This document shows, piece after piece, positions 13,116-59,812 of a stretch of DNA of 64,000 bases. The notes below the pieces were generated by a model that searched no databases, was not told the DNA's origin, and saw only the letters and a list, made by a program, of their open reading frames with translations. The DNA comes from Patescibacteria group bacterium UBA5194 (lineage in GTDB: Bacteria > Patescibacteriota > Gracilibacteria > BD1-5 > UBA6164). Position 1 is the first letter of the stretch. Each line of letters starts with the position of its first letter. The stretch covers positions 6,954-70,953 of the forward strand of contig DHWA01000013.1 in NCBI GenBank assembly GCA_002412935.1. Direction: 5' to 3'. The position numbers and the translations under genes were made by a program.

Positions 13116-15437
13116 ATGCCCTACTCAGAATCAGATACAAGAGCAAAATATATAGACCCTCAACTTAAAAATAGTAACTGGGAAGAAATAAGTATTATAA
13201 GAGAATACTATTTTACTGACTGAAGAAAAGCACTTTGATGAAAAAGATGAAAAAGAAAATTTGCTGATTATATACTGACTTTCAAATGAGTAAAACTTGC
13301 AATCATAGAAGCTAAAAAAGAAGAATTAGACCCAACAGAATGACTAGAACAAGTTAAAGAATACTGTAAAATCCTTAATTTGAGATTTGTTTATTCTACA
13401 AATTGAAAAAAGATTTATGAATTTGATTTAGAAACTTGAAAAGGAGATTTTGTAGATAAGTACCCTGCTCCAGAAGAACTATATAATAAAGTTTACTCAG
13501 AAAGAAATCTTGCAAAAGAAACTCTTCTAAGTGAACCTTTTTTATTGTCTGATAAAAAACCTAGATATTATCAAGAAATAGCTATAAATAAGACTATGGA
13601 AGCTATTTGAAACTGAGAAAATAGGATTTTACTAACTCTAGCTACTTGAACTTGAAAAACTGTTATAGCTTTTCAAACTGTTTATAAACTTTTCAATGCT
13701 AGATGGTCAAAAGATGGTATTTGAGTAAGAAGACCTAGAATATTATTTTTAGCAGATAGAAATATACTTGTAGACCAAGCAATGAATACTTTTAATCCAC
13801 TTGAAAAAGATATATTAAAAATCAATTGAGTTGAAATCAAAAAAAGATGATGAAAAGTCCCTATGAATGCAAATATTTTCTTTGCTATTTATCAAGCTTT
13901 GGTTTGATGAGTAGATGAAGAAAATCCAGATGAAGTAATTGAAGCATACTATAACAGATATCCAAAAGACTTTTTTGATATGATAATTATAGATGAATGT
14001 CATAGAGGCTGAGCTAGAGAAGATTGAAACTGGTCAGAAATATTAAAATACTTTGATAGTGCAATTCATCTATGACTTACAGCAACACCAAAAAGAGATG
14101 ACAATATAGATACATATAGATATTTTTGAAAACCTATTTATGAATACAGTTTAAAAGCTTGAATAGATGATTGATTTTTAACACCTTTTAAAATAAAAAG
14201 AATCAAGTTAAATATAGATGAACTAGTTTTAAATACTTGAGACCAGATAATAGAATGAACAGCTAAAAAAGATGTTTACTATACAAAAGATATGGAAAGA
14301 GAGATTATAATAGATGAAAGGTCTGATTTAATAGCTCAAACTATTTTACAACAAATCAATAAGATGGATAAAACCATAGTATTTTGTGTAGATCAAAGCC
14401 ATGCACTTAGAATAAGAGATAGTATAAATAAATATAAAACAGTTAAAGACTCTGATTATTGTGTAAGAGTTACAAGTAATGAATGAGAGATATGAAGAAC
14501 TTATTTAGAAAGATTTCAAGATAATGATAAAGATATACCAGTTATTCTTACAAGTTCACAAATGTTAACAACTTGAGTAGATGCCTTAAATGTAAGAAAT
14601 ATAGTACTTGTAAGGAATATTTGAAGCATAGTTGAGTATAAACAAATTATTTGAAGATGAACTCGTATATTTGACTGAAAAGATTATTTTACTATTCTTG
14701 ATTTTGTATGAGCTACAAATGATTTCAAAGATGAAGTTTGGGATTGATGACCAGAAGATGATGATAATTGTCATTCTGAACTTGTTTCAGAATCATCAAA
14801 ATGTAAAAATACTAATTATGAATCTGAAATAAATTCGCAGTGACAAGAAAAAGAAAAAAGATTATATGTTAAATTATGAGATAGTAGAGAAGTAAAAGTA
14901 ATAGATATAGAAACTAGATACCTTGACCCAATTACTTGAAAACACTTGAGTTCAGAAGACTTTTTAAAGAAGATAATTTGAGATTTACCAACTTTTTACA
15001 AAGATGAACATCAATTAAGAGAATTATGGAGTAATCCAGAAACTAGAGATGAATTATTGTATAAATTATCTCAAATATGACTTGATACAGAGCAATTAGA
15101 TGACTTAAAGAGAATATTTGAAGCTGAGGACTCAGATATATTTGATGTACTTGCTCACTTGTCTTTTGATAGTGATATAAAGTACAGGTCTGAAAGGTCT
15201 ATTTATTGAGAAGAAATAGTTGATAATTACGAAAGTATTAAAGCTCGTGAATTTTTAGAATTTTTACTTACTTTGTATGTGAAAAATTGAATTTTAGAGT
15301 TTAGAAAGGATAAATTAGCAAGTAAAATAGCTTTGTTTAATAAATGACAATCAAGAGAGATAGCAAGTGAATTTGGTTGAATTGAAGAGCTTAAAAATGC
15401 TTATTATGAATTGCAAAGGAGTTTATATGTTAAGTAA
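13116..15437 (+). CDS. hsdR: type I restriction enzyme R subunit
   Basis: 773 aa. N-terminal nuclease region, helicase motif I LATGTGKT, motif II DECHRG, TATP, QMLTTGVD, and an EcoEI-type C-terminal region. Confidence 0.9.
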
Positions 15438-17074: not shown

Positions 17075-17083
17075 AATGAAAAT

Positions 17084-24557: not shown

Positions 24558-24564
24558 TAGATTT

Positions 24565-24592
24565 AAAGAAGTATGTAAAAATACTTCTTTTT
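24565..24592 (+). terminator. rho-independent terminator after hsdM
   Basis: 10-bp stem AAAGAAGTAT / ATACTTCTTT, 6-nt loop, then TT. Confidence 0.6.
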
Positions 24593-24671
24593 ACTCCCCT
24601 CAAAAATCCATAATTAAATTTGCAAAATTTTATTATTGTATATAATAAGTATATGAAAATATAATTTATTT

Positions 24672-24700
24672 TTGACTTTATACCTAATTTGGAATATACT
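24672..24700 (+). promoter_or_regulatory. sigma70-like promoter candidate, possibly giving a leaderless transcript
   Basis: TTGACT, 17 nt, TATACT. The -10 ends 5 nt before ATG 24705. Confidence 0.3.
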
Positions 24701-24704
24701 GTAT

Positions 24705-25803: not shown

Positions 25804-26071
25804 TATTTTATAGAATCAATTTTCTTAGTTTATCCTAATTTATTAACTACTATTTATGAATTCAAAAGAACAATCATACAAAGAAATAGTTATTTCTTGA
25901 ATATTTGAAGATTTGAAAGATGAACAAGATTTGTATGATGAATATAAATAAACTAAAATATTAAATCATAGTTATTTCCATTTTAAAATATGTAGAAGTA
26001 TTTGAATGAAGATTGGTTAAAGAATAATATAAAATTTTACTTTGACTTTATTTTAAAAAATATTAAACTAT

Positions 26072-26107
26072 TCGTGAAAAATATACATATTACTATGTTT
26101 TTCACGA
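26072..26107. repeat. inverted repeat TCGTGAAAAA-N16-TTTTTCACGA, 30 nt upstream of fic
   Basis: Perfect 10-bp arms. Nearly the same palindrome recurs at 26977-27016. Confidence 0.6.
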
Positions 26108-26136
26108 TAAAATTTTAAATATTTATTTTTAAAATT

Positions 26137-27018
26137 ATGATAAATCAAACTACAAAAGATAAAATTATTAAACTTTTTGAACAATATGAAATTATTAGTG
26201 AGTGAAAAGAAAAAGCTTTAAAAGAGATAACTTTGGCTGAAATTCCAGAAATGATTTATAATTCAAATGCAATAGAAAATTCCACTTTAAGTTTAAAAGA
26301 TACAGAAGATATTTTGATTTATAATACTATAAAAAAAGATTATAATATAAGAGAAGTATATGAAGCAAAAAATTTGGCTGAAATCACTAAAGAGCTTTTA
26401 GAAACAGATACAGAAAAACTTTCTATTTCTTTAATTTTATCTTTACATAAAACGTTACTAACTCATATCAACAATAGTTATGCTTGAAGGTTTAGAAGAA
26501 ATGATGAATGGGTAAGGATATGAACTCACTTGTGAGCAAATCCTGATTTTGTAGATAATTTAATGAACAAATTAATAAAAGATTACAATAATAAAAAACA
26601 AGAATATTTTTTAGATAATATAGCTTATTTTCATGCAGAATTTGAAACAATTCATCCATTTTGTGATTGAAATGGTAGAATTTGAAGAGTACTTATAAAC
26701 TTTCAACTTATGCAACTTTGATATCCACCAATTATAGTACAAAATAAAAGTAAAAGACAAGATTATTATCCAAATTTTCAAAAATACCAAGATAAAGATA
26801 AATTTGATTCTTTTACAGAGGTTTTTTCTTTACTTTTAATAGAATCATTAAATAAGAGAATAACTATATTAACCTCAAAAAAAATAGTTACTTTAAGTGA
26901 ATGGTGTAAGAAAAATAATAAAAATGCTCCAAGTTATTTAAATAAGGCCAAAAGACAAACTATCCCAGCATTTAGAATTCGTGAAAAATGGTCTATTTCC
27001 GAAGATTTTCACGAATAA
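26137..27018 (+). CDS. fic: Fic-domain protein (class II: own inhibitory helix)
   Basis: 293 aa. Active-site HPFCDGNGRIGR at 26653-26688. N-terminal inhibitory motif SNAIEN at 26263-26280. Confidence 0.85.
26977..27016. repeat. inverted repeat ATTCGTGAAAA-N18-TTTTCACGAAT at the 3' end of fic
   Basis: Perfect 11-bp arms sharing the core of the 26072-26107 palindrome. Overlaps the last codons of fic. Confidence 0.6.
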
Positions 27019-27050
27019 ATCTAAACTTTAGTAATAATTAAAACTAACAA

Positions 27051-27188
27051 AATAACCTATAACTTATTTGGATAGTAAAAGTAGAAGAAAACAAAGAGAA
27101 TGATAAATTTATAAATGGTTTACTAGGAGAATTAAATATGATTTTGAAATAATAGATTTAAAGAAGTATGTAAAAATACTTCTTTTTT
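27051..27188 (+). pseudogene. internally deleted relic of the hsdM 3' end plus a copy of its terminator
   Basis: AATAACCTATAACTTAT..TTGGATAGTAAAAGTAGAAGA..GATAAATTTATAAATGGTTTACTAGGAGAATTAAATATGATTTTGAAATAATAGATTTAAAGAAGTATGTAAAAATACTTCTTT parallels the last roughly 270 bp of hsdM (24300-24592), with two internal deletions. Confidence 0.65.
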
Positions 27189-27326
27189 TATACAATATCA
27201 TACATTAAATGTATAATTAATTATCTATTTTATACCTATATAGCATACTTTTGTAATAAAAAGTTGCTTTTTTGTTATTTTTGTATACATTACTAATACA
27301 ATTATATACCTTATTAAAATATTATT

Positions 27327-28100
27327 ATGACTACAAATTCTATAAATCTAGGTGATAAACTTAAAGATTTGAGAAATAAAACTTGAGTTTCTCAAGAAGA
27401 TGTTGCCAATTATATTTGAGTTAGTAGATTAACCTATATAAATATAGAAAATTGAAAAAGAGAAGTGAAAGACTTAGAGATTAAGAAAATCGCTGAATTT
27501 TTTGAGAAATCAATAAGTGATTTTATAGAGAAAAAACAAGAAATAAATAGTACCAGTGATAAAAATTATAAATTGAAACAATTAATATTGTATATATCAA
27601 AAAAAACTCAAAATATAGATAGTTTTTGAAAAACAGTTTTAAATAAATTGCTGTATTTTAGTGATTTTAATTATTACGAATGGACTTATGAAACTATTAC
27701 ATGAGTTAATTATAAGAAATTACCTTTTTGACCAGTTCCTGAAAATATATCTGATATTCTTGATGAGATGGTAAGTGAATCATTGATAGCTATTACAGAA
27801 ACTACATATCATAATTACACTCAACAAAAAATTATTCCTTTAGTTGAAGCAAATTTAGATTTTTTAAATGATATTGATGAAAAATCTGCTAAAAAAACTA
27901 AATACGATAATTTACCTAAATCAATTCAGATTATTAATGATGTCTTAAATAAGTTTAAACATCATAAAGCAAGTGAAATTAGCGAATGGTCTCATATGGA
28001 TACACCATATAAGTCTAGCAAAAATATATGAGATATTATTAGACCCTGACTTGTTTTTTATAGAAGTGAGCCTTTTATAGTTAATCCTAATAATTTATAA
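27327..28100 (+). CDS. XRE-HTH plus DUF4065 (Panacea/SocA-like) antitoxin-type protein, second copy
   Basis: 257 aa. HTH segment VSQEDVANYIGVSRLTYINIENG, then KLLYFSDFNYYEW, typical of DUF4065. Contains track ORF 27768-28031. Confidence 0.65.
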
Positions 28101-28163
28101 ACTATGATATTTAAAGAATTACAAGAATTTGAAAAAGAATTAAAAAATATTATTCTAAACCAA

Positions 28164-28195
28164 AAAAGAAGTAACTACCGTTACTTCTTTTTTAC
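28164..28195 (+). terminator. rho-independent terminator
   Basis: 12-bp stem AAAAGAAGTAAC / GTTACTTCTTTT, 4-nt loop, then a T-run. Confidence 0.6.
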
Positions 28196-28273
28196 CTCTT
28201 CCCCCCCTTCATTTATTGTAATTTAAAAACATATATGATAAAATATTTACAGTAATTTGTTCAAATATTTTAT

Positions 28274-30037
28274 ATGTGAAATTCAAGAAAATTAAATGAG
28301 TTAGCAGCTACGGCAATTTGTTGAAATGATATAAGTTCTTCGGTCTTGTATGTTTCTGCTTTGTCTATTTATTTTGCTGGACAATATGCTTGGATAACTC
28401 TTTTAATTGTGGTCTGAGTATTGTATCTGTATCGTAAAATCTATGGAGAAGTTGTAGGAGCTTTACCTCTAAATGGTTGAGCTTACAATGCCCTACTCAA
28501 TACTACAAGTAAGGCAACTGCATCTTTTGCTGCAGCTTTAACTATATTGTCATATATAGCGACTGCTGTAATTTGAGCCAATGAAGCAATTCATTATCTG
28601 CATTATAGCTTTTCATTTCTTCCCTTAATTATCTCAACCATTATCTTACTCGTATTCTTTGCTCTTTTAGCAATGTCATGAATGAAAGAATCCTCTTTTG
28701 TTGCGATATTTTTATTTCTATTTCATTTATTGTCTTTGATAATTTTATCACTTTTTATCATATATTATCTATACCAAACCGGATTATGACAATTTTTCAG
28801 TAATTATAATTTACCACTAACAAATAATTGAAGTATCATTTCTGCTATATTTTTTGGTTTTGCTGCTTCAATGCTTGGAGTCTCAGGGTTTGAAAGTTCT
28901 GCCAATTTTGTAGAACAACAACAAGAATGAGTATTTCCAAAAACTCTGAGAAATATGTGGATTATAGTAAGTATTATAAATCCTCTTATAGCTATATTTG
29001 CATTATCTTTGTTTACTCTTCCGGTTCTAACTTCTGATGCCTATCAAAATACTCTACTCATTCAAATGTGAAAATTAGTTTGAAATAATAGTCTAGCTTT
29101 TCTAATTTCTATCGATGCATTTTTGGTATTGAGTGGTTCTGTTTTGACAAGTTTTATATGAGTATCATGACTATTTGAAAGAATAACTCTTGATAGAATC
29201 CTACCTCAATACTTTATCAAAAAAAATAAAAGATGAAGTTCTTATAGAATTATCACGATGTTTTTACTTCTTTGTATCTCAATCTTATTAATCACAAAAT
29301 GAAATGTTAAATTATTAGCTTGAGTGTATTCTATCTCATTTTTAGCAGTTATGAGTCTTTTTTGAATTGGTAACATATTATTAAAAGTATTTAGATCTAA
29401 AATCCCAAGACCTGAAATTGCTTCTTGGTTTTCCGTATTTATTGCAATAACATTAACTATCACAGCTCTAATTGGTAATATCTTGATAAAACCAGCTGAC
29501 TCTTTGCCTAGCAATTTATCTATCTTTTTAATATATTTCATCCCTACAATAATACTTATTAGCATAATGTTGAATAGGATTTTCTTACTTAAATTAATAA
29601 TACATTTCTTACAATTTATATTTGAGCCAATAAAAACATTTGTTTATAAATCAAATCTAATAATTTTAAATACCATAAATAAAATCAATAAACAAGAATT
29701 TGTATTTTTTACAAAAGGTGATAGTTTATCAAATCTAAACAAAGTAATGCTTTATATCCTAGAAAATGAAAATACAAAAAGAATAAAATTTGTTACAGTT
29801 TTACCCCCTTGAGAAATAGTATCAAATGAACTTAAACAAAAAATCAAATTTTTAGATGAGGAATATACAGAAATCACTGTAGATTTCAGAGTACTTCACT
29901 GAGAATTTTGACCAAAATTGATTCACGAATTATCACAAAAACGGAAAATCCCAGTAAATTTTATGTTTATATGATCTCCAAGTTACAAATTTCCATATAG
30001 AATTGAAGAATTGGGTTGAGTAAGGTTGATAATATAA
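28274..30037 (+). CDS. APC-superfamily amino acid/polyamine permease with C-terminal cytoplasmic domain
   Basis: 587 aa. About 12 TM helices. N-terminal NELAATAICGNDISSS motif. Includes track ORF 29483-29812. Confidence 0.75.
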
Positions 30038-30124
30038 TAACTTGCATTATTTAAATAATAACTTGCATTTAAAAATTAAAATAATATAATAATCATTAAT
30101 CTAAGAGATTATATAACTTGCATT
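30037..30124 (+). promoter_or_regulatory. three direct copies of ATAACTTGCATT upstream of the HTH-Fic-like gene
   Basis: Exact 12-mers at 30037-30048, 30058-30069 and 30113-30124. The last ends 23 nt before the ATG. Confidence 0.4.
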
Positions 30125-30146
30125 TTTATTATTTATGTTGCATAAT

Positions 30147-31169
30147 ATGAAAACTAATACTACTCTAAATCAAATATTTGATTTAATATTATCAAAAGAA
30201 GAAACTCCTTATAATTTAATCATTTCTAAATTCCCTAATATTGCTGAATCAACTATTACGAGAAATCTAAATAAACTTATTACTGAATGAAAAATCATAA
30301 AGAATAAAATTTGAAAAAATACTTTTTATAAAGCTATTTGAAGTGATTTTATCTTGAATTATCTAAATAAACCGTTTTTTGAAAGAGAAAAAAAATCTTA
30401 CAATTTCGATTTTCTCATGAATTATAAACCAAACCAAACAAGTTTTTTATGAGAAAAATATAAGGTAATACAAGAAAAATATTTAAATCAAAACATACTT
30501 TCAACTTATGATTATAAACAAAATTTAAGAGCAATAGAAAATTTACTTATAGATTTAAGTTTTTCTTCTTCAAAACTTGAATGAAATACTTATAGTTACT
30601 TAGATACTGAAATACTTATAAAATATAATAGTGTCGCAGAATGAAAAAGCCAAGTAGAAACTCAAATGATTCTAAATCATAAAAATGCTATAAAATATAT
30701 TATAGATAACAGAAAAGAAATAAATTATACAAAACAAGAATTTCAAAATATTCACTACTTACTTTGAAAATGACTTTTAATAGAAGATTATTTATGAAAA
30801 ATCAGAACTTCTGAAGTAAGTATTTGAGGTTCAGCATATACTCCGCTTGATAATAAATTTCAACTTGAAGAACAATTTGAGATATTTTTAGATAAGTTAA
30901 ATCAGATTAAAAATCCTTTTGAACAAACTCTTTTTATACTTGTTTTTATTCCATATTTTCAAATATTTATGGATATAAACAAAAGGACTTCCAGAATAAG
31001 TGCAAATTTACCTCTTATAAAAAACTGATTAAATCCTTTTAGTTTTCTTCAGATAAAAGACAGAGATTATATAAATGCTATCTTAGCAATTTATGAACTA
31101 AATGATGTAAATTTAATGAAAGATTTATTTGTAGATAATTATATATTGAATTTAAAGAGGTATATTTAA
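30147..31169 (+). CDS. winged-HTH plus Fic-fold protein with degenerate active-site motif
   Basis: 340 aa. N-terminal HTH-like ISKFPNIAESTITRNLNKL. QIFMDINKRTSR (30960-30995) stands in place of HPFxxGNGRxxR. Confidence 0.6.
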
Positions 31170-31208
31170 GCAATTTTATTCTCCTTGCAATTCCTACTCT
31201 CATAACTT

Positions 31209-31258
31209 AAAAATCTACTACAGATAAATATTTTTATATTTACCCATAGTAGATTTTT
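31209..31258. terminator. 12-bp inverted repeat hairpin between the Fic-like gene and the tRNA
   Basis: AAAAATCTACTA-N26-TAGTAGATTTTT. A/T runs on both sides would allow bidirectional termination. Confidence 0.45.
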
Positions 31259-31261
31259 AGT

Positions 31262-31338
31262 TGGCAAGGACCGTAGGAATTGCACCTACGCCTACTGGCT
31301 TCGGAGGCCGGTCACTCTTCTAATTAAGCTAGGTCCTT
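31262..31338 (-). tRNA. tRNA-Arg(CCG)-like gene with atypical features
   Basis: The reverse complement folds with a 7-bp acceptor AAGGACC/GGTCCTT, a D-arm GCTT..GAGT, anticodon loop CTCCGAA (anticodon CCG), a 5-nt variable loop, T-stem GTAGG/CCTAC, discriminator G and encoded CCA. Atypical points: T-loop TGCAATT (G at position 55), a C-A mismatch, and an extra pair in the anticodon stem. Confidence 0.5.
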
Positions 31339-31450
31339 ATATTTGCAAGACTATTATATAAAAAATCTAATATTTTCAAAATAAACTTTCAAAAATTGTA
31401 TTTATTTCTATAATTATTATAGATGACAAAAATACTCTTAACCCCTACCC

Positions 31451-33274
31451 ATGCAAAAACAACAAATAATCGACGAAATAATAAACTTATCTTTAGAAAG
31501 AAACATCACCACTAAAGATGAATTTCATAAAACCCAAAATGAAGTCTACAAAAAATACAAACTTCCAGAGTGAATTACTGGAATTGATATCCTTGAAAGA
31601 TACAACGAACATGTAAAAAATAAAACAGTTAGAGATAGTAATGATTTCAGAAAAGTTTTGAGAAAGAGATGAGTAAGAAGCCTTTCTGGAGTAACTGTTA
31701 TTTCCCTACTTACAGAGTTTTTTGGTTGTCCTGGAAAATGTATCTATTGTCCAACATTTGAATGATTACCAAAATCATATATCCCAAATGAGCCTGCAGT
31801 TCAAAGAGCAAAACTAAATAAATTTGATCCAATTATGCAGATTCATAATAGACTTAGATCACTTGAAATCACAGGACATAAAATAGAAAAAAATGATGTG
31901 AGAATCATAGGTGGGACTTGGAGTTGTTATCCGAAAAAATATCAAGAAGATTTTATAAAAGGTATCTATGATGCTTTCAATACTTTTGATGAGATGAAAG
32001 AACAAATAGATGAAAATGTAATTTCAGGTGATAAGTTTTCAAGCTTTACAATGAAAGAATGATACAATTTAAAATTATCAAAAGACTTAGAAGAAGCAAA
32101 GAAAATCAATGAAACAACAAAATATAGAGTCATCTGAATTGCAATTGAAACTCGCCCAGATTGGGTAAATATAGAAGAAATTGCTAGACTAAGAAGATAT
32201 GGAGTTACAAGAGTTGAAATAGGTTATCAGACAACTATTGATGAAATAAATATATTAAATAAAAGATGACATACAAACAAAGAAAGTATTCTTGCTACTA
32301 AATTACTCAAGGATGCATGATTTAAAGTTGTTGCTCATATAATGCCCAATTTACTTTGAAGTACTCCTGAGCTTGATAAAAAAGCATTTAAAGAAGTATT
32401 TGAGAACCCCGACTTTAGACCAGATGAGTTAAAAATCTATCCTATGGTCGTTACAGATAAATCAGAATTAACAGAAATATGGAAAAAATGATGATTTAAA
32501 GCATACGATGATGAGACACTTATAAATTTGATGTGTGATTTAGAAGAAATGGTTCCAGAATATGTAAGGATAAATAGAACTTACAGAGACATCCCAGCTT
32601 CACAAATACTTCACGGTTCAACTCTCAGTAATCTAAGACAAATAGTTGAAAATAGAATGAAAGATAAATGAATAAAATTACAAGACATAAGAAATAGAGA
32701 AATAAAAGACAAAATCAATGACCCATCTAGAGCAGTTTTACACACTATAAAATATGAAGCAAGTGGTTGAACAGAATATTTTATGACTTTTGAAGATAGT
32801 GAAGATAGAACTATTTTTAGTTTACTTAGGTTGAGATTGCCAGGAAAAAGTTTTTCTGTCATCCTCGGGCTTGACCCGGGGATCTCTAGCAAGGAAAAAC
32901 TAGAAAAAGAAAGTAATGGCACAGATATTTTAAAAAGCACTTTATCAAAAGATGAATTTATAAATTCTAGTGAGTTCATAGATTCCGGATCAAGTCCGGA
33001 ATGACAAAACTGCGAATCTATTCTCCCAGAACTATCTTGAGCAGCACTAATCAGAGAAATCCACACATTTTGAGATCAATTAAGTATCTGAGAAGTTGGA
33101 AGTACTTTTTGACAACATATAGGTTTTGGAAAACGCCTTATTGCTGAATCTGAAAAAATAGCAATAGAAAATTGATTCAAAAAAATGGCTGTTATAGCCT
33201 GAGTTTGAGTAAGAGAATATTATAAAAAGAGATGATATGAGCTAGAATGAGAGTATATGGTAAAAAGTTTGTAA
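31451..33274 (+). CDS. Elp3-like radical-SAM / GNAT acetyltransferase-domain protein, carrying a 50-codon repeat-derived insertion
   Basis: 607 aa. CPGKCIYCP radical-SAM cluster motif. C-terminal GNAT region (HIGFGKRLI). Joins track ORFs 31835-32062 and 32783-33004. Confidence 0.85.
32857..33006. mobile_element. TGTCAT-family element inserted in frame in the elp3-like CDS (150 bp = 50 codons)
   Basis: Left arm is TGTCATCCTCGGGCTTGACCCGGGGATCT. Right arm is AGATTCCGGATCAAGTCCGGAATGACA. Translated as VILGLDPGISS...DSGSSPEGQ. Confidence 0.75.
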
Positions 33275-42132: not shown

Positions 42133-43296
42133 TTACTTTTTCACTATTTTATTCACTATTAATTGTTGGAAGATTGTAAATATAGTAGATATCCCCCAAT
42201 ATATTCAAACTCAAGCCAATAATGAATATGTAAAAACTCAAACCATAGCAGGTAATCAATAAAGCATAAACTTATTTAATAAATCTGGATCTGGCATAAA
42301 ACTACTATAATTTGAAGCATCTTTTTTCTTTTCTAAAACAACTCATTTAGCATTTGATTTATTATTTGCTAGAGATAATTTAACTTGTATAAACTGAATC
42401 ACTGCAATAAATATTCATAAAGATATTCAAGTAACTCATCAAACGCCCAACAAATCCATACCAAAAAAATTATGCCCTATACTATCTAAATTAAAATTTC
42501 ATAATTTATCATATATATAATATACGTTTGAATAATCTTTTATATTTATAAATATACGGTAAATAACTAAAAGTATAGGCATTTGAATAATCAGTAATCA
42601 ACAAGATCAAAATGGATTTACACTTTCTTCCTTATATAATTTCATCATTTCAACTCAAAGTGCTTGTGAATTTCATTTATGTTTTTCTTGAATTGCTTTT
42701 ATTTTTGGTTGTATTGCTTGAAGCTTTCTTTGAGAAAGCATCATCTTATGTTGTGGGTAAAGCAAGAATAACCTAATAATTATTGTTATAGTAATTATAG
42801 CCCATCATAGAGAGTTATTAAAAAGGATAATAAAAAATATCGTCAGATTATACAAAGGCGCATAAATTAGTCATACAAAAATCTTTGAAATAATTCATTT
42901 ATTTTTTATTTCTGTTTGTGTTATATACTCTTTTTTATCTAGTTTTATAAGATAGTTGTATGTTCATTCATTCAAGAATTGATTATAATATTTGTTATAT
43001 TCTATAGTTTCTTTTGTATTAGGTTTTATATCTAAATCTTTACAAAATTCTTTTGGGAAAACCAATTTTTCTCAAGAGTAATTTATAGCTATATCATTAC
43101 AAGTATTTAATTTAACTGATTTATCAGTATTATTTGTTATAAGTAAGCTAGGTGAAGCTGGAATAGTATATGATGTTTTTGAAGATTTAAATGTCAAAAC
43201 TCATGTTGTTGTATTTTCTTTATCCTTAAAAAATACATTTACTACTAAAATAGTAAGTAAAAAAATTATCAGGAAATTTAAAATTTTGTCTTTCAT
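42133..43296 (-). CDS. yidC: membrane protein insertase YidC
   Basis: 387 aa. Conserved core QRKLQAIQPKIKAIQEKHK...MMKLYKEESVNPFGSC..LIIQMPIL. Positioned downstream of rnpA. Confidence 0.85.
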
Positions 43297-43354
43297 TATT
43301 GTATTTAATTAATAAATATTTGTTTTTGAATTTTTTTATCCCATTTATTATTAT

Positions 43355-43459
43355 TGTCATTCCCTAGAAATAGGGAATCTTCCTTATATTGCATCTAATA
43401 TTATAATCATAGACATTTTTAATACAAGGTAGATTATCGGGTCAAGCCCGATAATGACA
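43355..43459. mobile_element. TGTCAT-family element with non-identical (hybrid) arms
   Basis: Left arm is TGTCATTCCCTAGAAATAGGGAATCTTCC. Right arm is TAGATTATCGGGTCAAGCCCGATAATGACA. Intergenic, between yidC and rnpA. Confidence 0.7.
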
Positions 43460-43465
43460 AACTTT

Positions 43466-43915
43466 TTATCATTTTATGTTCATCATTTTTTTCAATAAAA
43501 ATTTCACATCATTATCAAATCAATTTATACTCTCTAAATTATTTTTTTCAAGTTTAGTTTGTTTTTTTAGAACAAAAATTAGGTCATAGTGAATTGATAG
43601 TTTAGAGTTGTCAGTTTGGAATTGTCATTGCGAGGTACGAAGCAATCCATTCTCTATATTGTTTCAAGTTTCCTGGATTGCTTTGCTATCGCTCGCAATG
43701 ACATATGATGTTACCATATCATAAAATCTTCTTCTAAAAAAGTTTCTTTTTACGCTTGAATCTACATTTTTTCATGAAATTATAATTGCAAATCTATTAT
43801 GTTTCAATTTATTTTTATTATAATTCAAAACTAATCAATATGAAAAAAAAGGTTTTCAATATTTCAAAACCTTTTTTACTTCATTTTCCTTCAATCTATA
43901 ATCTTTAGAAATCAT
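43466..43915 (-). CDS. rnpA: RNase P protein component, carrying a 27-codon repeat-derived insertion
   Basis: 149 aa. KNVDSSVKRNFFRRRFYD matches the RNR-motif region. Lies 14 nt downstream of rpmH. Confidence 0.75.
43623..43703. mobile_element. TGTCAT-family element inserted in frame in rnpA (81 bp = 27 codons)
   Basis: TGTCATTGCGAGGTACGAAGCAATCC...GGATTGCTTTGCTATCGCTCGCAATGACA. Read on the minus strand as VIASDSKAIQETGNNIENGLLRTSQGQ. Confidence 0.75.
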
Positions 43916-43929: not shown

Positions 43930-44160
43930 TTATTTTATGTAATTTCCTTTACCATCAAATCTAGCTTTTCTAGGACTTCCTCAAGCTATAATATGCATTT
44001 TAGCTTTTCAGTTAACTTCTTGAAATCTTTTTGGATAAGATACTGTTAATTCATATCTTCATTTTCTTCTTCTATTTCTCAAAACTTTTCAACCGTCTAT
44101 AGTTCTTTGTAAAAAACCATGAACTCTAAGTCTCTTTCTTTTTTTAAATTTTCCTAACAT
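43930..44160 (-). CDS. rpmH: ribosomal protein L34 with an unusual roughly 30-aa C-terminal extension
   Basis: MLGKFKKRKRLRVHGFLQRTIDGGKVLRNRRRKGRYELTV is a normal L34, with the conserved KGR Gly encoded by TGA. The frame then continues for a total of 76 aa. Confidence 0.8.
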
Positions 44161-44317: not shown

Positions 44318-45538
44318 TTATAATTTTCTTCTTAAAAAAGCAGGAACAGAATCTATTTCTTCTTGCATTTGATTTTTTACTGTAGAAGGTGTAGATGGTG
44401 TATTATATGTATTTGTTTGAGTCATAGGTCTAGCTTCATTTATAGGTTTTCTACCAAAACTTCAACTTCTAAGTAATTCTCATTTTTTTTCTAAGAATTT
44501 TTTATTTGTTTCTTCATTAAATCAAGTAGCCACAACAGTTATTTTGATTTGTCCATCATAATCAGGAACTATACTTGTTCCAAATATTATATTTGCATCT
44601 GGATCTACTGATTCAGTAATAATTTTAGCTGCTTCATCAACCTCAAACATTGATAAATCATTTCATCAAGTTATATTTAGAAGTAATCATTTTGCTCAAG
44701 CTATAGATAAATCAAGAAGTGGACTATCCATTGCAGCACGTGCTGCTTCTACTGCTCTATTTTCTCCAGAACCATAACCTATTCACATCAAAGCTGATCA
44801 TGCATTTCTCATTACTGATTTTATATCTGCAAAATCAAGATTTATAATTCAAGGATTAGTTATTAAATCAGAAATTCATTGAACTCATTGACTAAGTACT
44901 TCATCAACAATTGAGAAAGCATCAAGCATAGGAGTTTTTTTGTCAATTATAGAAAGGATTCTATCATTTGGAATAGTTATAAGAGTATCTACTTTTTCTT
45001 TCAATTCTTCAAATCAATCAATTGCTTTTGCAGCTCTGTTTTGTCATTCAAAAGAAAATGGTTTAGTAACAACTCATACAGTCAATGCTCATAATTCTTT
45101 TGCAATTTCAGCAATAACTGGGGCAGCTCAAGTTCAAGTTCATCAACCAAGACCACAAGTTATAAATACCATATGTGCTCATTCAAGCATCGCCCTAATT
45201 TCATCTCTTGATTCTTCTGCTGCTTTTTTACCTATTTGAGGATCAGCTCAAGCTCACAATCATAAAGTCACCATTTTTCCAAGATTTAGCTTTTGATTTG
45301 CATAAGATGAAAACAATGCTTGTGAATCAGTATTCATAGCAATAAATTCTACTCTTTCAAAACCTCATTGAATCATTCTATTTACAGTATTTGTTCATCC
45401 TCCACCTACTCAAACTACTATTATTTTTGCAATTGGTGAAATTGATTTAGAAATCAAAATTTCTTCTGGTCAGTTATGTTCTATTTTACTTCAATTATTC
45501 ATAAGTAAATTTTTTAATCTATCTTCTCTCTTTATCAT
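44318..45538 (-). CDS. ftsZ: cell division protein FtsZ
   Basis: 406 aa. Tubulin signature GGGTGTG at 45128-45148 has four of its Gly encoded by TGA. NTDSQAL and C-terminal [10 protein letters not shown] peptide. Confidence 0.92.
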
Positions 45539-47246: not shown

Positions 47247-47349
47247 TGTCATACTCGTGCTCACGTGCCCCTTGTGGGTATGACACGAGTATCCAGTGAA
47301 CTAAATATTGCTTGTACACTAGATTATCGGGTCAAGCCCGATAATGACA
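47247..47349. mobile_element. TGTCAT-family element with hybrid arms
   Basis: Left arm is TGTCATACTCGTG...CACGAGTATCC. Right arm is TAGATTATCGGGTCAAGCCCGATAATGACA. Lies in the ftsA/ftsE divergent intergenic region. Confidence 0.7.
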
Positions 47350-52369: not shown

Positions 52370-52509
52370 TGTCATTCCCGAGAAGTCGGGAATCTTCATT
52401 ATATTGTAGCTAAGAAATAGTGGATTAAATATTTTTTAATATTTTTAGTTCAGTTTTATTGATTGACTATTTTTATACAAAGTAGATTCCCGCCTTCGCG
52501 GGAATGACA
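52370..52509. mobile_element. complete TGTCAT-family element, CCCG-hairpin arm type
   Basis: TGTCATTCCCGAGAAGTCGGGAATCTTC...GTAGATTCCCGCCTTCGCGGGAATGACA. The left half is about 90 percent identical to 53999-54132. Confidence 0.8.
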
Positions 52510-52762: not shown

Positions 52763-53989
52763 ATGAAAATCGCAATACTTCACGAAATGCTTATAAAACT
52801 TGGTTGAGCTGAAAAAGTTGTAGAAAAAATTGCTTCTATTTTTCCTGATGCTCCGATTTTTACTCTGATTTACGATGAAGAAAAAGTATGAAAAATATTT
52901 CCAAAAGATAAAGTAAAAGTAGCTTCATCTACTCAGAGAATTTATAATATTACAAAAAATCAAAGATTTTGTCTTCCTTTTATGCCTAGAGCTGTTGAAA
53001 GTCTTGATTTTTCAGATTATGATGTAGTTATTTGTTCTTCTTCTGGATTTGCACATTGAGCAATTACCAAACCAGAAACTAAATTTATCGTTTACTATCA
53101 TTCTCCTGCAAGATATCTATGGGATTGGACCAATGAATACAAAAAAGATATTGGTTTTGATAAGTGATTAAAATGATATATATTAAATAAATTATTTTTG
53201 AGTCTTAGAATGTGGGATGTAATTGCATCATCTAGAGTGGATATAAATCTAGCAAATAGTAAAAATTCTGCTTCTAGAGTACAAAAATATTACAGAAAAA
53301 CTTGTGAAATACTTTATCCTCCTATCGAAACAAAGAGATTTAAGAAAGAAATCAATAAAGTATGAGTTTTGGAAACTATACTGTCATCCTGAACGAATGT
53401 GAAGGATCCCTTAAGCAAGGTAATCACTAAAAAATCAAGTTCAAGGGATTCTTCGTTACTCTCAGAATGACAAACAGTAAATAATATAACATATTACATA
53501 ATTATATCAGCACTAACCGAATTTAAAAAAATAGAAATAGCAATAGAATGATTCAACAAAATGCCTGACAAAAATCTGGTTATAATTTGAGATTGAAATT
53601 ATAGAGAAACTTTGAAAAATAAAGTAAATTGAAATAATATAATTTTTACATGAGCTAGATACTCTGATGAACTTGTAGAGTTAGTTCAATGAAGTCTAGG
53701 GCTCATATTTCCATGAGAAGAAGATTTCTGAATAGTTCCAATTGAAGCAATGGCAGCAGGAAAACCTATCTTTGCATATGCTTGAGGATGATTACTTGAA
53801 ACTGTAATTGATAACAAAACTTGAAGCTTTTTCCAAGATAAGACTTGATATGATTTTGTCCCAAAATTTGCAGAATTTGATCAAAAAGTTAACTCATGAT
53901 TTTTTGACAAAAAATTTATAACAAAACATGCCCTAAAATTTGATGAATCTTTATTTGAGAAAAGGATTAAAGAGATTGTAAATTGATAA
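52763..53989 (+). CDS. GT4-family glycosyltransferase carrying a roughly 30-codon repeat-derived insertion
   Basis: 408 aa. EEDFGIVPIEAMAAGKPIFAY is the GT-B C-domain motif. The frame is uninterrupted through the inserted element. Confidence 0.8.
53382..53472. mobile_element. TGTCAT-family element inserted in frame in the glycosyltransferase CDS
   Basis: TGTCATCCTGAACGAATGTGAAGGATCCCTTAAGC...CAAGGGATTCTTCGTTACTCTCAGAATGACA. Translated as LSSGTNVKDPLSKVITKKSSSRDSSLLSEGQ. Confidence 0.75.
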
Positions 53990-57865: not shown

Positions 57866-59812
57866 TTATCTATCGTATTTTTTCTTCAAATCTTGTAGAG
57901 TTAATTCAGAAACAGAAGGTCTTCAATGTGGACAAGTTGAACTATATGACAAGACACTGTCATTAAGTAATTTATTCATCTCAAATAGATTTAATTTATT
58001 ACCGAATTTGATTGCTGATCTACAAGCTGTATAAGCACATATTTTATTTCTTACTTCCTCTAAATTCATAGATTTTCAAGTATTAAATTCTCATATATCA
58101 CTAATTATTCACAAAAAAATGTTTTTTATATCTTCTTTTTTAATAAAATTTGGAATAGCACTTAAAAGTACACTTGAAGTAGACAATATTTCAAAATCAA
58201 ATCCCATATCCAAAAAGATTTGTCTATATTGTGTCAATATCGAAATTTCTTTTCCAGTAAGATTTAAATTTTCTTGAATTAAAAGTTGTTGAGATTGTGT
58301 ATCTAGATCTTTTTTTATAAGTTTTTCATAAATTATTCTTTCTGCTAGTGCATGCTGATCAAGGATTATCAATTTATCATCTTTTTCAACAATTATATAA
58401 CTATTAAAAACTTGCCCTACTATTTTTCATAGAGATGTATAATGTAAATCAGAATTTACACCTAAATCACTTCAAGTAAAATCTTTTAAAAAATGTTTTG
58501 TAAACTCAATGGAATCTTTTATTGTATTTTGTGCTGGATTTGTAGATACATCTTTATATGGAGAATATGATTTGAATTTTGTTCCGGAACCTGTGTAATA
58601 TATATTATGTCATTCCCTTGAAGAAGGGAATCTTCATTGTATTGTTTCCTTTTGTCATTCACTATGTTGTCATTGCGATACTGCCAGAGTACAGGGAGTA
58701 CGAAGCAATCCATTCACTATATTGTTTCATGTTTTCTGGATTGCTTCGTTACTCTCGCAATGACAGTTTTCTTCTCAATTATCACTTTCATCTATATTAA
58801 CCAAACTACTATTTTCCAACTTACTCAAAATAGCATTATAAAAAGCTCTGTATATTTCTTGTTCTCTTGCAAACCTGATTTCTTGTTTTCTTGGATGTAC
58901 ATTTACATCGATTTCTTCGGGATTTATTTCTAAATTTAATATATATCCTGGAAAATTATTGTGTGGGATGAACCTACGATATGCTTCATTTATTGCTCTA
59001 TAAATAAGAGGTGAACTTATAATTCTCCCATTTACAAATATTGCTTGTCTATTTTTATTTAGAAAATGAATCTTTGGAGTTGAGATAAATCAATTTATAT
59101 TAAGTCATGAAAAAGAAAAATCTATACCTAACAAATTATTATAAAATTCTTCTCAATATATATTATAGATTCTTGTTTTTAAATCTTCATTTTCTTTGTA
59201 CTTAAAAATTATTTTTCAATTATTTACAAATTCAAATCAGATTTGTGGATGAGCAAGTGCAATATTATTTAGAAAATCACTTATGTGACTATATTCTGTT
59301 TTTTCTTTTTTAAGGTAGTTAATTCTTGCTGGAGTATTAAAAAATAATTCTTTAACAATTATTTTAGTTCATATGTTTATACTTTCTTCTTTTATATCTA
59401 ACTTTTCTCATCATATAACTTCTAAAGAGTATCATCCTTGTCATCCTGAACTTGATTCAGGATCTCTTGTTTTTGAAATTATCTTAAATTTTGAAACAGA
59501 TGATATAGACGCCAAAGCTTCTCACCTAAATCAAAAAGTCATAACTTTATGTAAATCTTCTAGATTTTTTATTTTTGAAGTAGTATGTTTTTCTGTAAGT
59601 ATAATTAAATCTTCTTTTTCTATTCCTACTCAATTATCACTTATAATTATCTCATCTATTCAACCTGAAGTGATTTCAACCTTTATACTAGTGCTTCAAG
59701 CATCTATACTATTTTCTACAAGTTCTTTAACTACTGAAACTGGTCTTTCAACTACTTCTCAAGCTGATATCTGATTTATAAGTATTTTATCTAGTTTAAT
59801 AATTTTTGACAT
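57866..59812 (-). CDS. mutL: DNA mismatch repair protein MutL with repeat-derived insertions
   Basis: 648 aa. Frame checked codon by codon. GHKL motifs VVKELVENSIDAG, DNGVGI, GFRGEAL. C-terminal domain ILDQHALAERIIYE and CPHGRP. Confidence 0.85.
58608..58765. mobile_element. composite of one solo arm, one arm fragment and one complete TGTCAT-family element inside the mutL linker
   Basis: TGTCAT starts at 58608, 58653 and 58668. The complete element 58668-58765 has arms TGTCATTGCGATACTGCC...ACGAAGCAATCC and GGATTGCTTCGTTACTCTCGCAATGACA. The whole stretch is translated in frame. Confidence 0.75.
59439..59466. repeat. solo TGTCAT-family arm inside the mutL N-terminal domain
   Basis: TGTCATCCTGAACTTGATTCAGGATCTC, read on the minus strand as RDPESSSGGQ. 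Confidence 0.5.

What the first reader, a model, noticed from the sequence alone, without database searches (positions are those of the whole stretch)
43623..43703. An 81-bp TGTCAT element is translated inside the RNase P protein gene rnpA
Seen in sequence: on the minus strand rnpA reads ...KRNFFRRRFYDMVTSY, then VIASDSKAIQETGNNIENGLLRTSQGQ, then FQTDNSKLSIHYDLIFVLKK... The middle 27 codons are a complete palindromic element (TGTCATTGCGAG...CTCGCAATGACA). A second element (43355-43459) starts 7 nt after the rnpA stop.

Inference: even a small, essential, highly basic RNA-binding protein tolerates the insertion. This argues that the element-encoded peptide is structurally benign, or that the insertion is very recent.
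Basis: partly seen in the sequence, partly recalled or inferred. Interest (0 to 1): 0.65.

Follow-up and report, generated by a model that had tools for sequence, protein, structure and literature searches.

The report
Hairpin repeat translated inside rnpA
An 81-base pair of known bacterial hairpin repeats (CGTC/TGTC-tagged REPs, the DNA motifs cut by the small Ssn nuclease) sits in frame in a variable surface loop of the RNase P protein gene of a Gracilibacteria genome that reads TGA as glycine; this is a new host and a new gene for a known kind of element.

Summary
rnpA (43915-43466, minus strand) is open only if TGA is read as glycine. It carries an 81-bp element (43623-43703) between the RNR helix and strand beta4.

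The element is two inverted hairpin modules, each TGTC + ATTGC-loop-GCAAT + CCA. This is the architecture of the published CGTC/TGTC-tagged REPs (Di Nocera 2013). That superfamily includes Rickettsia RPE-4/-6 and Neisseria dRS3/NTS, the ssDNA motifs bound and cut by the roughly 95-aa GIY-YIG nuclease SsnA (Chenal 2025).

- Other modules in the window match the Neisseria NTS almost letter for letter.
- The nearest relative MAG encodes an ssn gene flanked by the same modules.
- The source metagenome holds two ssn contigs at the window's depth.
- A short dimer next to an ssn unit in another Gracilibacteria MAG is visibly a deletion derivative of that unit. The window's long-stem dimers share such a unit's ends.

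The same element, in the same frame, sits in rnpA of three further lineages. Two others carry a different repeat type there, one a decayed copy, and three are empty. Every filled allele stays in frame and stop-free, so the insert is very probably translated and tolerated, and it is not very recent.

This is a new member of a known kind. One feature is unexplained: the 3' module is nearly always read in the TGA frame.

The parts
43466..43915 (-). rnpA, RNase P protein component, 149 aa under code 25 (TGA = Gly), stop TAA 43466-43468
   Evidence: PF00825; homologs and rpmH-rnpA-yidC synteny; fold.
43623..43703 (.). 81-bp head-to-head dimer of two short-stem TGTC-tagged hairpin modules. It is translated as residues about 71-98 (YVIASDSKAIQETGNNIENGLLRTSQGQ).
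43674..43703 (-). Module at the mRNA-5' side: TGTC | ATTGC | GAGCGATAGCAAA | GCAAT | CCA (tag, stem, loop, stem, tail)
   Evidence: Tag, stems and the C after the stem are invariant in the four orthologous copies.
43650..43673 (.). AT-rich 24-nt spacer between the two modules. It is the most variable part of the element.
43623..43649 (+). Module at the mRNA-3' side (it lies on the + strand): TGTC | ATTGC | GAGGTACGAA | GCAAT | CCA. Its end ...CAATGACA is read as CAA TGA CAA (Gln-Gly-Gln).
43664..43666 (-). In-frame TGA (Gly) codon inside the element. The second one is at 43625-43627.
43355..43459 (.). 105-bp long-stem dimer between rnpA and yidC. Its ends are TGTC-ATTCCCTA-gaaa-TAGGGAAT-CTTC and TGTC-ATTATCGGG-cttga-CCCGATAAT-CTAC. 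It is absent from the relatives L001 and L002.
43930..44160 (-). rpmH (ribosomal protein L34), upstream neighbour of rnpA
42133..43296 (-). yidC (60KD_IMP), downstream neighbour of rnpA
58608..58765 (.). Cluster of modules in frame in mutL (aa 350-402, in the linker between the N- and C-terminal domains). It includes a 98-bp copy of the same short-stem dimer, 91% identical to the rnpA copy.
59439..59467 (+). Solo long-stem module in frame in the mutL ATPase domain (aa 116-125, RDPESSSGGQ)
53382..53472 (.). 91-bp short-stem dimer in frame in a glycosyltransferase gene (aa 207-237). L002 has it at the same site. L001 has a different insert there.
32857..33006 (.). 150-bp long-stem dimer in frame in an ELP3-like radical-SAM/acetyltransferase gene (aa 469-519)
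14769..14797 (+). Solo long-stem module in frame in the type I restriction R-subunit-like gene (aa 552-561, CHSELVSESS)
52370..52509 (.). 140-bp intergenic long-stem dimer. Its left 35 nt match the left end of the ssn unit of the nearest relative MAG at 34/35. Its right module, TGTCATTCCCGCGAAGGCGGGAATCTAC, fits the Neisseria NTS consensus apart from the first and last letters.
   Evidence: PMC11893778.

Best explanation
The 81 bp are a head-to-head dimer of two TGTC-tagged hairpin repeats. They belong to the CGTC-tagged REP superfamily, also called Ssn-related motifs (SRM). The dimer became fixed in frame in the loop joining the RNR helix (alpha2) to strand beta4 of the RNase P protein.

It is transcribed and translated with the gene and adds about 27 residues of poorly constrained, probably flexible peptide to a loop that is naturally variable. 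RNase P function is therefore kept.

The insert is readable only because this organism decodes TGA as glycine. It contains two in-frame TGA codons, one of them made by the conserved terminal ...ATGACA.

The repeats themselves are DNA-level entities. What stays conserved between lineages is the tag, the stems and the C after the stem. These are the bases that the published SsnA nuclease needs for binding and cutting single-stranded DNA. The peptide is not conserved.

The family most likely spreads as a non-autonomous, deletion-derived relative of a roughly 370-410-bp unit, hairpin-ssn-hairpin, that encodes a 96-aa GIY-YIG nuclease.

Shown here:
- anatomy and family membership by architecture;
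- presence/absence among relatives, and maintenance of the reading frame;
- ssn units with the same ends in the nearest relative;
- a short dimer that is a deletion derivative of an ssn unit.

Inferred:
- that the insert is translated;
- that Ssn moves the repeats;
- that the short-stem type in rnpA is served by an Ssn in this organism.
For: Anatomy. Tag TGTC, a stem starting AT, a C/CCA tail and inverted pairing into dimers describe about 29 modules in the window. Stems differ between copies with full compensation: ATTGC/GCAAT, ATCCT/AGGAT, ATTCT/AGAAT, ATTCCCGA/TCGGGAAT, ATTATCGGG/CCCGATAAT. In L008 a double change, ATTAC/GTAAT, keeps the local hairpin while weakening the long end-to-end pairing.

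Family.
- Di Nocera 2013 (PMC3733652) defines CGTC REPs by these features: the tag is 'changed to TGTC' in many repeats, AT occupies stem positions 1-2, the tail is CCA, and head-to-head dimers predominate. The paper equates them with RPE-4/-6 and dRS3 and lists in-frame intragenic dimers of 20-30 aa.
- Chenal 2025 (PMC11893778) gives the NTS as CGTCATTCCCGCGMAVGCGGGAATCYRG. Window 52509(-) and 54386(-) read TGTCATTCCCGCGAAGGCGGGAATCT...

The short-stem type.
- TGTCATTGCGAG-N4-9-GAAGCAATCC occurs in at least 120 GTDB species genomes of many phyla.
- It flanks single-domain GIY-YIG genes in L026, L053 and L094.

ssn in this lineage.
- L146 is a 25% GC contig in which the conserved Gly of YTGVT and DGF are TGA codons.
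- L161 comes from GCA_041659565.1, the MAG that also holds L001, which is 92-96% identical to the window over syntenic genes.
- The left end of the L161 unit matches window 52370 at 34/35.
- In L162 a 135-bp dimer next to the ssn unit keeps 37/40 nt of its left end and 50/50 nt of its right end, including the last ssn codons and the stop.
- Two ssn contigs in the source metagenome have depth 60-62, against 64.5-69 for the window.

Insertion in rnpA.
- Filled, same element and frame: window, L004, L006, L008.
- Long-stem type at the same loop: L005, L007.
- Half-decayed: L002.
- Empty: L001, L009, L010.
- All variable regions are multiples of 3 and stop-free.

Site. The loop aligns to E. coli RnpA 'RLRQH--ELPAM' between the RNR helix and beta4. 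In the AlphaFold model the core has pLDDT of about 90 or more and the insert below 50.

DNA rather than peptide is constrained. Element identity is 88-91% whatever the divergence of the host gene (80-96%), and 3-7 non-synonymous against 1-4 synonymous codon differences separate each pair of copies.
Against: - No RNA or protein data show the insert in the mRNA or the protein. The only metatranscriptome with a relative has no contig across the element.
- The rnpA element does not fit the published SRM search pattern. Only 3 window modules do. Its 5-bp stem and 10-13-nt loop lie outside the 8-9/4-5 ranges of the four published CGTC families.
- No ssn gene lies in the window or in L001-L010. Assigning the two ssn contigs to this organism rests on depth alone.
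- Filled and empty alleles do not differ by a clean 81-bp indel. A few flanking bases differ, and the empty alleles L001/L009 keep ATGACA at the right junction. The insertion chemistry therefore cannot be read off.
- Transposition by Ssn has never been demonstrated. The 2025 paper shows ssDNA cleavage and an effect on transformation, and only raises mobility as a hypothesis.
Confidence: 0.82

Rival explanations
1. The element is removed before translation, either by RNA-level splicing or processing or by programmed DNA excision, so RnpA is made without the 27 residues.
For: The element folds into a very stable hairpin. Direct RNA evidence is lacking.
Against: - All seven filled alleles, of six different lengths, are multiples of three and free of TAA/TAG in 25% GC DNA. 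That is not expected if the segment is removed.
- L002 has lost the left module yet is still in frame.
- There is no Rfam family, intron or ribozyme match.
- Published SsnA does not bind or cut RNA (PMC11893778).
- No contig in the source metagenome skips the element.
Confidence: 0.05
2. The insertion is very recent, or this rnpA copy is dispensable or decaying, so tolerance says nothing about the protein.
For: The repeat family is clearly active or recently active: there are presence/absence differences between genomes 92-96% identical.
Against: - The same element and frame are found in lineages whose rnpA is 80% identical.
- Decayed (L002) and partly overwritten (L007) versions exist.
- All invariant RnpA residues and the RNR motif are intact.
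- Synteny is canonical.
- There is a single rnpA in the window, and rnpA flank depth in the source metagenome equals the baseline.
Confidence: 0.06
3. The insert has been co-opted. Either the extra loop next to the RNR helix contributes to binding the RNase P RNA or substrate, or the hairpin DNA inside rnpA is kept for a DNA-level role, such as an Ssn cutting site that limits recombination of incoming DNA at the rpmH-rnpA-yidC locus.
For: - The element is more conserved (88-89%) than the host gene (80%) between the two clades, with the Ssn-critical bases invariant.
- The same loop is occupied by two different repeat types in different lineages.
- NTS/SsnA modulate transformation in Neisseria (PMC11893778).
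Against: - Closely related genomes do without the insert (L001, L009, L010).
- The peptide evolves mostly by non-synonymous change.
- The same repeats sit in unrelated genes and in intergenic DNA.
- Higher conservation can equally come from more recent spread, or from gene conversion among copies: the mutL paralogue is as similar as the orthologues.
Confidence: 0.07

Closest known systems
CGTC-tagged REPs (Di Nocera, De Gregorio and Rocco 2013, BMC Genomics 14:522; PMC3733652)
   Same: - Unpaired 5' tag CGTC, often TGTC.
- Stem beginning with AT.
- Short 3' tail, consensus CCA.
- Mostly head-to-head dimers.
- Many stem variants within one genome.
- Usually placed just downstream of genes, but also in frame inside genes, where a dimer encodes 20-30 aa.
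- DNA repair genes are often hit; here it is mutL.
- The window's long-stem modules have exactly the 8 bp/4 nt and 9 bp/5 nt stem/loop geometries of families CGTC-1 and CGTC-3/4.
   Different: - The rnpA element has a 5-bp stem and a 10-13-nt GAG...GAA loop, outside the four published families.
- The host is a CPR bacterium (Gracilibacteria) with 25% GC and the UGA = Gly code, a group not among the 8 phyla surveyed.
- The share of genes hit (5 of about 55 in this window) is high.
- That paper found no dedicated transposase.
NTS / Ssn-related motifs with the GIY-YIG ssDNA nuclease SsnA (Chenal et al. 2025, Nat Commun 16:2388; PMC11893778)
   Same: - Two window modules equal the Neisseria NTS consensus except for the first and last letters.
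- 96-aa single-domain GIY-YIG genes flanked on both sides by the modules occur in the nearest relative MAG and in other Gracilibacteria.
- The bases reported as critical (GTC before the stem, C after it) are the invariant ones in the rnpA copies.
   Different: - In N. meningitidis only 2% of NTS lie inside genes.
- The rnpA module type does not match the paper's degenerate SRM pattern.
- No biochemical data exist for any CPR Ssn.
- The paper proposes mobility only as a hypothesis. Here a short dimer that is a deletion derivative of an ssn unit is seen directly (L162).
Rickettsia palindromic elements (RPE; Ogata et al. 2000, Science 290:347, from my own knowledge; RPE-4 and RPE-6 are equated with CGTC-4 and CGTC-1 in PMC3733652)
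   Same: Palindromic repeats inserted in frame in many conserved genes of a host-dependent bacterium with a small genome. They are kept open, encode surface peptides and leave the proteins apparently functional.
   Different: - RPE-1, the classic case, is a longer (about 100-150 bp), unrelated palindrome.
- Rickettsia uses the standard code, so the ATGACA end cannot be read in the TGA frame. Here that frame is used almost exclusively.
GTAG REPs / REPINs with RAYT (TnpA-REP) tyrosine transposases, and the IS200/IS605 family
   Same: The logic is the same: a conserved unpaired tetranucleotide next to a DNA hairpin, inverted doublets, recognition as single-stranded DNA, and a small enzyme gene flanked by its own repeats.
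   Different: - The tag is TGTC/CGTC, not GTAG.
- The associated enzyme is a GIY-YIG nuclease, not an HUH/Y1 transposase.
- No Y1 transposase gene was seen next to the modules in the loci examined.

Membership tests
CGTC-tagged REP superfamily (Di Nocera 2013) | Unpaired 5' tetranucleotide CGTC (TGTC or CCTC allowed) directly before the hairpin | tested here: met
   Both modules of the rnpA element and all roughly 29 structured modules in the window start with TGTC. Copies in other phyla start with TGTC or CGTC.
CGTC-tagged REP superfamily (Di Nocera 2013) | Stem with complementary A and T in first and second position | tested here: met
   ATTGC...GCAAT in rnpA. Every module listed with a stem of 5 bp or more and a C tail starts AT and ends AT.
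CGTC-tagged REP superfamily (Di Nocera 2013) | Stem 8-9 bp and loop 4-5 nt | tested here: not met
   The rnpA modules have a 5-bp stem and loops of 10 and 13 nt. The neighbouring element 43355-43459 and 13 other window modules do meet it (8/4 and 9/5). The paper notes deviant loops in Bradyrhizobium CGTC-1 and says smaller repeats may have been missed.
CGTC-tagged REP superfamily (Di Nocera 2013) | Short unpaired 3' tail, consensus CCA | tested here: met
   GCAAT-CCA(G/T) on both modules. The tail is invariant in the four orthologous copies.
CGTC-tagged REP superfamily (Di Nocera 2013) | Predominantly head-to-head dimers | tested here: met
   There are 11 dimers TGTCAT...ATGACA of 81-158 bp in the window, plus some solo modules.
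Ssn-related motif (SRM) / Ssn system (Chenal 2025) | Match to the published degenerate pattern HGTCWYN(0-2)YYVSBRHN(0-5)WNVSBRGN(0-2)RNCYNB | tested here: not met
   The rnpA modules do not match. Three window modules do (32857+, 52509-, 54386-), against 0.04 expected.
Ssn-related motif (SRM) / Ssn system (Chenal 2025) | The motif flanks genes for single-domain, roughly 95-aa GIY-YIG (cd10448-type) proteins | tested here: met
   The short-stem type flanks GIY-YIG genes in L026, L053 and L094 (PF01541). The long-stem type flanks ssn in the Gracilibacteria loci L146, L161 and L162. Assignment to cd10448 itself could not be checked, because no CDD search was available.
Ssn-related motif (SRM) / Ssn system (Chenal 2025) | An ssn gene is present in the genome that carries the repeats | tested here: inconclusive
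   None lies in the 64-kb window. One is present in the nearest relative MAG, GCA_041659565.1. Two ssn-bearing contigs in the source metagenome have depth 60-62, against 64.5-69 for the window contig.
Ssn-related motif (SRM) / Ssn system (Chenal 2025) | Bound and cut by the cognate Ssn as single-stranded DNA, a few nt upstream of the tag | not testable with these tools
   This needs purified protein and oligonucleotides. Only indirect evidence is available: the GTC and the C after the stem are invariant in the rnpA copies.
GTAG REP / REPIN with RAYT | GTAG tag and an associated Y1 (HUH) transposase | tested here: not met
   The tag is TGTC. The recurrent neighbouring gene is GIY-YIG, and no other nuclease or transposase family recurs among the 504 neighbouring ORFs clustered.
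Classical MITE of a DDE-transposase insertion sequence | Terminal inverted repeats plus a target-site duplication of fixed length | tested here: not met
   Terminal inverted repeats are present, but flanking direct repeats are 0-2 nt and inconsistent across 11 dimers. Empty and filled sites differ by more than a clean insertion.
Self-splicing intron, ribozyme or other described RNA family | Match to a curated covariance model | tested here: not met
   Rfam 15 at gathering thresholds finds only a tRNA in the window. With permissive thresholds on 43300-43760 there are only chance-level hits, E of 0.2 or more.
Bacterial RNase P protein (RnpA, PF00825): the host gene | Pfam domain, RNR motif, alpha-beta sandwich fold, rpmH-rnpA-yidC context | tested here: met
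   (RNFFRRRF invariant).

The most novel reading that the evidence does not exclude
In bacteria that read UGA as glycine, Ssn-type hairpin repeats have colonised coding sequence on an unusual scale. Five of about 55 genes in this window carry them, including essential rnpA and mutL.

The 3' module is read almost always in the frame A|TGA|CA: 14 of 16 cases, about 10-12 independent insertions. Under the standard code that frame would be a stop.

If this bias is real, there are two readings. Either the codon reassignment opened a niche for in-frame spread, or insertion or retention is frame-directed by a mechanism not yet described.

Together with the directly visible deletion derivative of an ssn unit, it would make the hairpin-ssn-hairpin unit a bona fide mobile element driven by a GIY-YIG ssDNA nuclease. 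That would be a transposition chemistry not yet demonstrated in bacteria.
Probability: 0.3. Interest if true: 0.65.

Novelty: new member of a known kind. Interest (0 to 1): 0.42.

Why it matters
- It extends a described repeat/nuclease system (CGTC REPs, Ssn-related motifs) to the Candidate Phyla Radiation and to an alternative genetic code.
- It shows that even the small, basic RNase P protein can carry such a repeat in a defined loop.
- It gives comparative material bearing on two open points in the literature: whether these repeats are mobile and what moves them. The material is filled, decayed, replaced and empty alleles, ssn units and a deletion derivative of one.
- Practically, annotators of Gracilibacteria and Absconditabacteria genomes should expect 10-50-residue repeat-encoded inserts in conserved proteins. 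They should not treat them as frameshifts, introns or assembly errors.

Tried and rejected
- Hammerhead or other ribozyme, or intron. The three-way and hairpin shapes suggested it, but Rfam gave nothing and the core motifs do not fit.
- RNA evidence for or against removal of the insert. One metatranscriptome (X20) holds a roughly 92% relative, but no contig crosses the element. This is inconclusive.
The database version, with Trp at TGA, was used instead.
- Single-sequence PDB search found nothing. The profile search gave weak but correct RnpA hits.
- Literature search for the literal sequence found only unrelated primers. 'Gracilibacteria + palindromic' found nothing relevant.
The search seeded with the L146 protein did.
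L146 was used instead.
- Target-site duplications: none.
- I tested whether stop codons inside the modules explain the TGA-frame bias. They do not: the last 45 nt are open about equally in all three frames.
- I could not decide between one old insertion with losses, repeated insertion at the same loop, and transfer of the filled loop by recombination. Element identity (88-91%) is flat across host divergence.
Full report
**1. What is in the sequence**

The window has 25% G+C, and long reading frames exist only if TGA is a sense codon. TGA means glycine. The neighbouring ftsZ has 29 in-frame TGA codons, and four of them fall on glycines of the invariant GGGTGTG signature. In a related contig, the conserved Gly of the GIY-YIG motifs YTGVT and DGF are also TGA.

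Homologs are named Candidatus Gracilibacteria by NCBI. The window comes from a hydrocarbon metagenome sequenced in 2014.

On the minus strand, rnpA runs from 43915 to 43466 and encodes 149 aa. It lies in the canonical rpmH-rnpA-yidC arrangement. It matches Pfam PF00825:
- with the insert, residues 4-67 only, 40 bits;
- with the 27 codons removed, residues 4-97 contiguously, 46 bits.

**2. The element**

It has a perfect 12-nt terminal inverted repeat and a second inverted pair. It folds at -33 kcal/mol with z = -6.9. Its 12-mer end occurs six times in the window against 0.07 expected.

It is not palindromic throughout. It is two inverted modules, each TGTC | ATTGC | 10-13-nt loop GAG...GAA | GCAAT | CCA, around a 24-nt AT-rich spacer.

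About 29 such modules lie in the window, as 11 inverted dimers of 81-158 bp and some solo copies. They come in two geometries:
- short-stem: 5-bp stem and long loop, as in rnpA;
- long-stem: 8 bp/4 nt or 9 bp/5 nt, as in the element 43355-43459 that starts at the 7th base after the rnpA stop.

Stems differ between copies with full compensation, while TGTC, the AT at the stem base and the following C stay fixed.

In the source metagenome, depth over the modules is 8-55 times the depth of the flanks. Copies therefore number in the tens at least.

**3. What it is**

These features are, point for point, the published definition of CGTC-tagged REPs (Di Nocera et al. 2013, PMC3733652):
- the tag is CGTC, often TGTC;
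- AT occupies stem positions 1-2;
- stems are 8-9 bp and loops 4-5 nt;
- the tail is CCA;
- head-to-head dimers predominate.

That paper equates them with Neisseria dRS3 and Rickettsia RPE-4/RPE-6. It documents in-frame intragenic dimers encoding 20-30 aa, often in DNA repair genes. It concludes that they 'apparently lack a dedicated transposase'.

Chenal et al. 2025 (PMC11893778) then showed two things. The Neisseria version, NTS = CGTCATTCCCGCGMAVGCGGGAATCYRG, is bound and cut by the 94-aa GIY-YIG nuclease SsnA. It acts only on single-stranded DNA and cuts a few nt upstream. Thousands of ssn homologs across phyla are flanked by such 'Ssn-related motifs'.

Window modules 52509(-) and 54386(-) read TGTCATTCCCGCGAAGGCGGGAATCT...

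The short-stem type of rnpA lies outside the published stem/loop ranges and outside the paper's degenerate search pattern. However, TGTCATTGCGAG-N4-9-GAAGCAATCC occurs in at least 120 species genomes. They range from Bradyrhizobium, Hymenobacter and Nostoc to Anaerolineae, Dehalococcoidia, Parcubacteria, Peregrinibacteria and Absconditabacteria. In L026, L053 and L094 this motif flanks single-domain GIY-YIG genes.

I therefore file the rnpA element as a variant member of this superfamily.

**4. The nuclease in this lineage**

No ssn gene lies in the window or in the rnpA loci of relatives.

A scan of metagenome contigs with a subterminal word of the window's long-stem dimers returned L146. It has 25% GC and uses code 25. 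It carries a 407-bp unit: TGTC-hairpin-CTTCATTATATT - ssn (96 aa) - ATACAAGGAAGATT-hairpin-GACA.

Its closest database relatives are Gracilibacteria proteins. One of them is in GCA_041659565.1, the MAG that also holds L001. That MAG is 92-96% identical to the window over syntenic genes. The left end of its ssn unit matches the window element at 52370 in 34 of 35 positions.

In L162 a 135-bp dimer beside the ssn unit keeps 37/40 nt of the unit's left end. It also keeps 50/50 nt of its right end, including the last ssn codons and the stop. That short dimer is a deletion derivative of the ssn unit.

The source metagenome contains two short contigs covering a whole ssn gene at depth 60-62. The window contig has depth 64.5-69. 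This suggests, but does not prove, two ssn copies in this very genome.

**5. The insertion in rnpA across relatives**

Among 115 homologs most are 111-130 aa, and about ten are 139-160 aa. DNA of ten loci shows the following:
- the same 81-bp short-stem dimer, same orientation and frame: window, L004, L006, L008;
- a long-stem dimer at the same loop: L005, and L007, which also retains the last 12 nt of the short-stem dimer;
- a copy whose left module has decayed: L002;
- no insert: L001, L009, L010.

The loci fall into two clades, 80% identical to each other in the conserved parts of the gene. Each clade has filled and empty alleles.

All variable regions (48-159 nt) are multiples of three and free of TAA/TAG.

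Filled and empty alleles do not differ by a clean 81-bp indel. The empty alleles L001/L009 keep AAA TGA CAA where the filled ones have the element's right end.

Orthologous copies are 88-91% identical whatever the host divergence, and the mutL paralogue in the window is as similar. Differences are mostly non-synonymous. The invariant columns are the tags, stems and tails.

In the source metagenome no contig skips the element. A groundwater relative carries the L001-type empty allele and also lacks the intergenic element.

**6. Where it sits in the protein**

A profile of the family aligns the variable stretch to E. coli RnpA 'RLRQH--ELPAM'. This is the end of the RNR helix and the connection to beta4.

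AlphaFold2 with 108 homologs gives mean pLDDT 81. The core scores about 90 or more, and residues 77-105 score below 50. The top 16 Foldseek hits are bacterial RNase P proteins.

This loop is the only hypervariable part of the protein in Gracilibacteria.

I did not map whether the loop points away from the RNA in the holoenzyme. That it does is an inference.

**7. Other genes, and the role of the code**

In-frame modules also lie in four other genes:
- an ELP3-like gene, aa 469-519;
- a glycosyltransferase, aa 207-237;
- mutL, aa 116-125 in the ATPase domain, where E. coli MutL has a shorter loop, and aa 350-402 in the inter-domain linker;
- an HsdR-like gene, aa 552-561.

Five of the six inserts contain in-frame TGA codons, and rnpA has two. 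Under the standard code these alleles would be null.

**8. An unexplained bias**

I examined about 200 kb of low-GC loci (below 31% G+C), most of which need TGA as a sense codon. In them, the 3' module (...ATGACA) inside long ORFs is read as A|TGA|CA (Gly-Gln) in 14 of 16 cases. That is roughly 10-12 independent insertions. The 5' module shows no frame preference.

Stop codons within the modules do not explain it.

This observation is post hoc and rests on few events. I report it as a lead.

**9. Verdict**

The insert is tolerated, very probably translated, and sits in a permissive loop. It is not a very recent event, and it is not a new kind of element.

It is a new member, with a variant hairpin geometry, of the CGTC-REP / Ssn-related-motif superfamily. 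It sits in a new host group and a new gene. The closest precedents are the in-frame RPE-4/-6 copies of Rickettsia conorii.

Mobilisation by Ssn remains an inference. The ssn units with matching ends and the deletion derivative seen here strengthen it.

Noticed in passing
window 44318-45538 (ftsZ, minus strand), and the whole window: The genome uses TGA as a glycine codon (code 25). ftsZ has 29 in-frame TGA codons, four of them in the GGGTGTG signature. Table-11 ORF calling shreds every gene.
   Followed up: yes
window ORFs, and about 200 kb of related low-GC loci (L001-L010, L133-L157): Inside genes the 3' module ...ATGACA is read as A|TGA|CA (Gly-Gln) in 14 of 16 cases, while the 5' module shows no frame bias. 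Stops inside the modules do not explain it.
   Followed up: partly
L162 2953-3330 and 3359-3493 (GCA_010119095.1): An ssn unit is followed by a 135-bp dimer that keeps the unit's left 40 nt (37/40) and right 50 nt (50/50), including the last ssn codons and the stop. This is a direct picture of a non-autonomous deletion derivative.
   Followed up: yes
L161 2956-3325 (GCA_041659565.1, the MAG that also holds L001): The ssn unit of the nearest relative sits between sufB and a short sufD-like ORF. Its left end equals window 52370-52404 at 34/35.
   Followed up: partly
window about 15000-32000: No hairpin modules lie between 14797 and 32857, although they average about one per 2 kb elsewhere. The stretch and the genes just before it hold type I restriction-modification, Fic-like, DUF3800-like and HTH genes, by my reading of the translations only. 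It may be a recently acquired island.
   Followed up: no
window 53376-53491, compared with L001 287-465 and L002 1233-1323: The same site of the glycosyltransferase gene carries a 91-bp short-stem dimer in the window and in L002. L001 has a different, longer insert there: a solo module between two CCCCCTT.AT.AAGGGGG hairpins. This is a second hot spot like the rnpA loop.
   Followed up: partly
L045 about 1825-2031 (Anaerolineae MAG): A tandem array of five short-stem half modules (TGTCATTGCGAGCGAAGCGAAGCAATCC) with a 34-37-nt period. The loops contain the GCGAAGC sequence known as an unusually stable DNA mini-hairpin (from my own knowledge).
   Followed up: no
L088 7911-7939 (Absconditabacteria MAG): A solo short-stem module reads NVIASDSEAIQ in one frame that stays open through the flanking sequence, the same peptide frame as in rnpA. 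I did not check that this lies in a real gene. If it does, in-frame copies also occur in the sister code-25 phylum.
   Followed up: no
window 47247-47349, compared with L001 6616-6699: The same intergenic dimer is 19 nt longer in the window because of an extra piece inside one hairpin loop (CACGTGCCCCTTGTGGGTA). L002 lacks the element.
   Followed up: partly
window 43622-43650, in run X1: The contigs of the source run break inside the rnpA element: one ends at 43650 and the next starts at 43622. This is typical repeat-induced fragmentation. Independent assemblies from other metagenomes confirm the join.
   Followed up: yes
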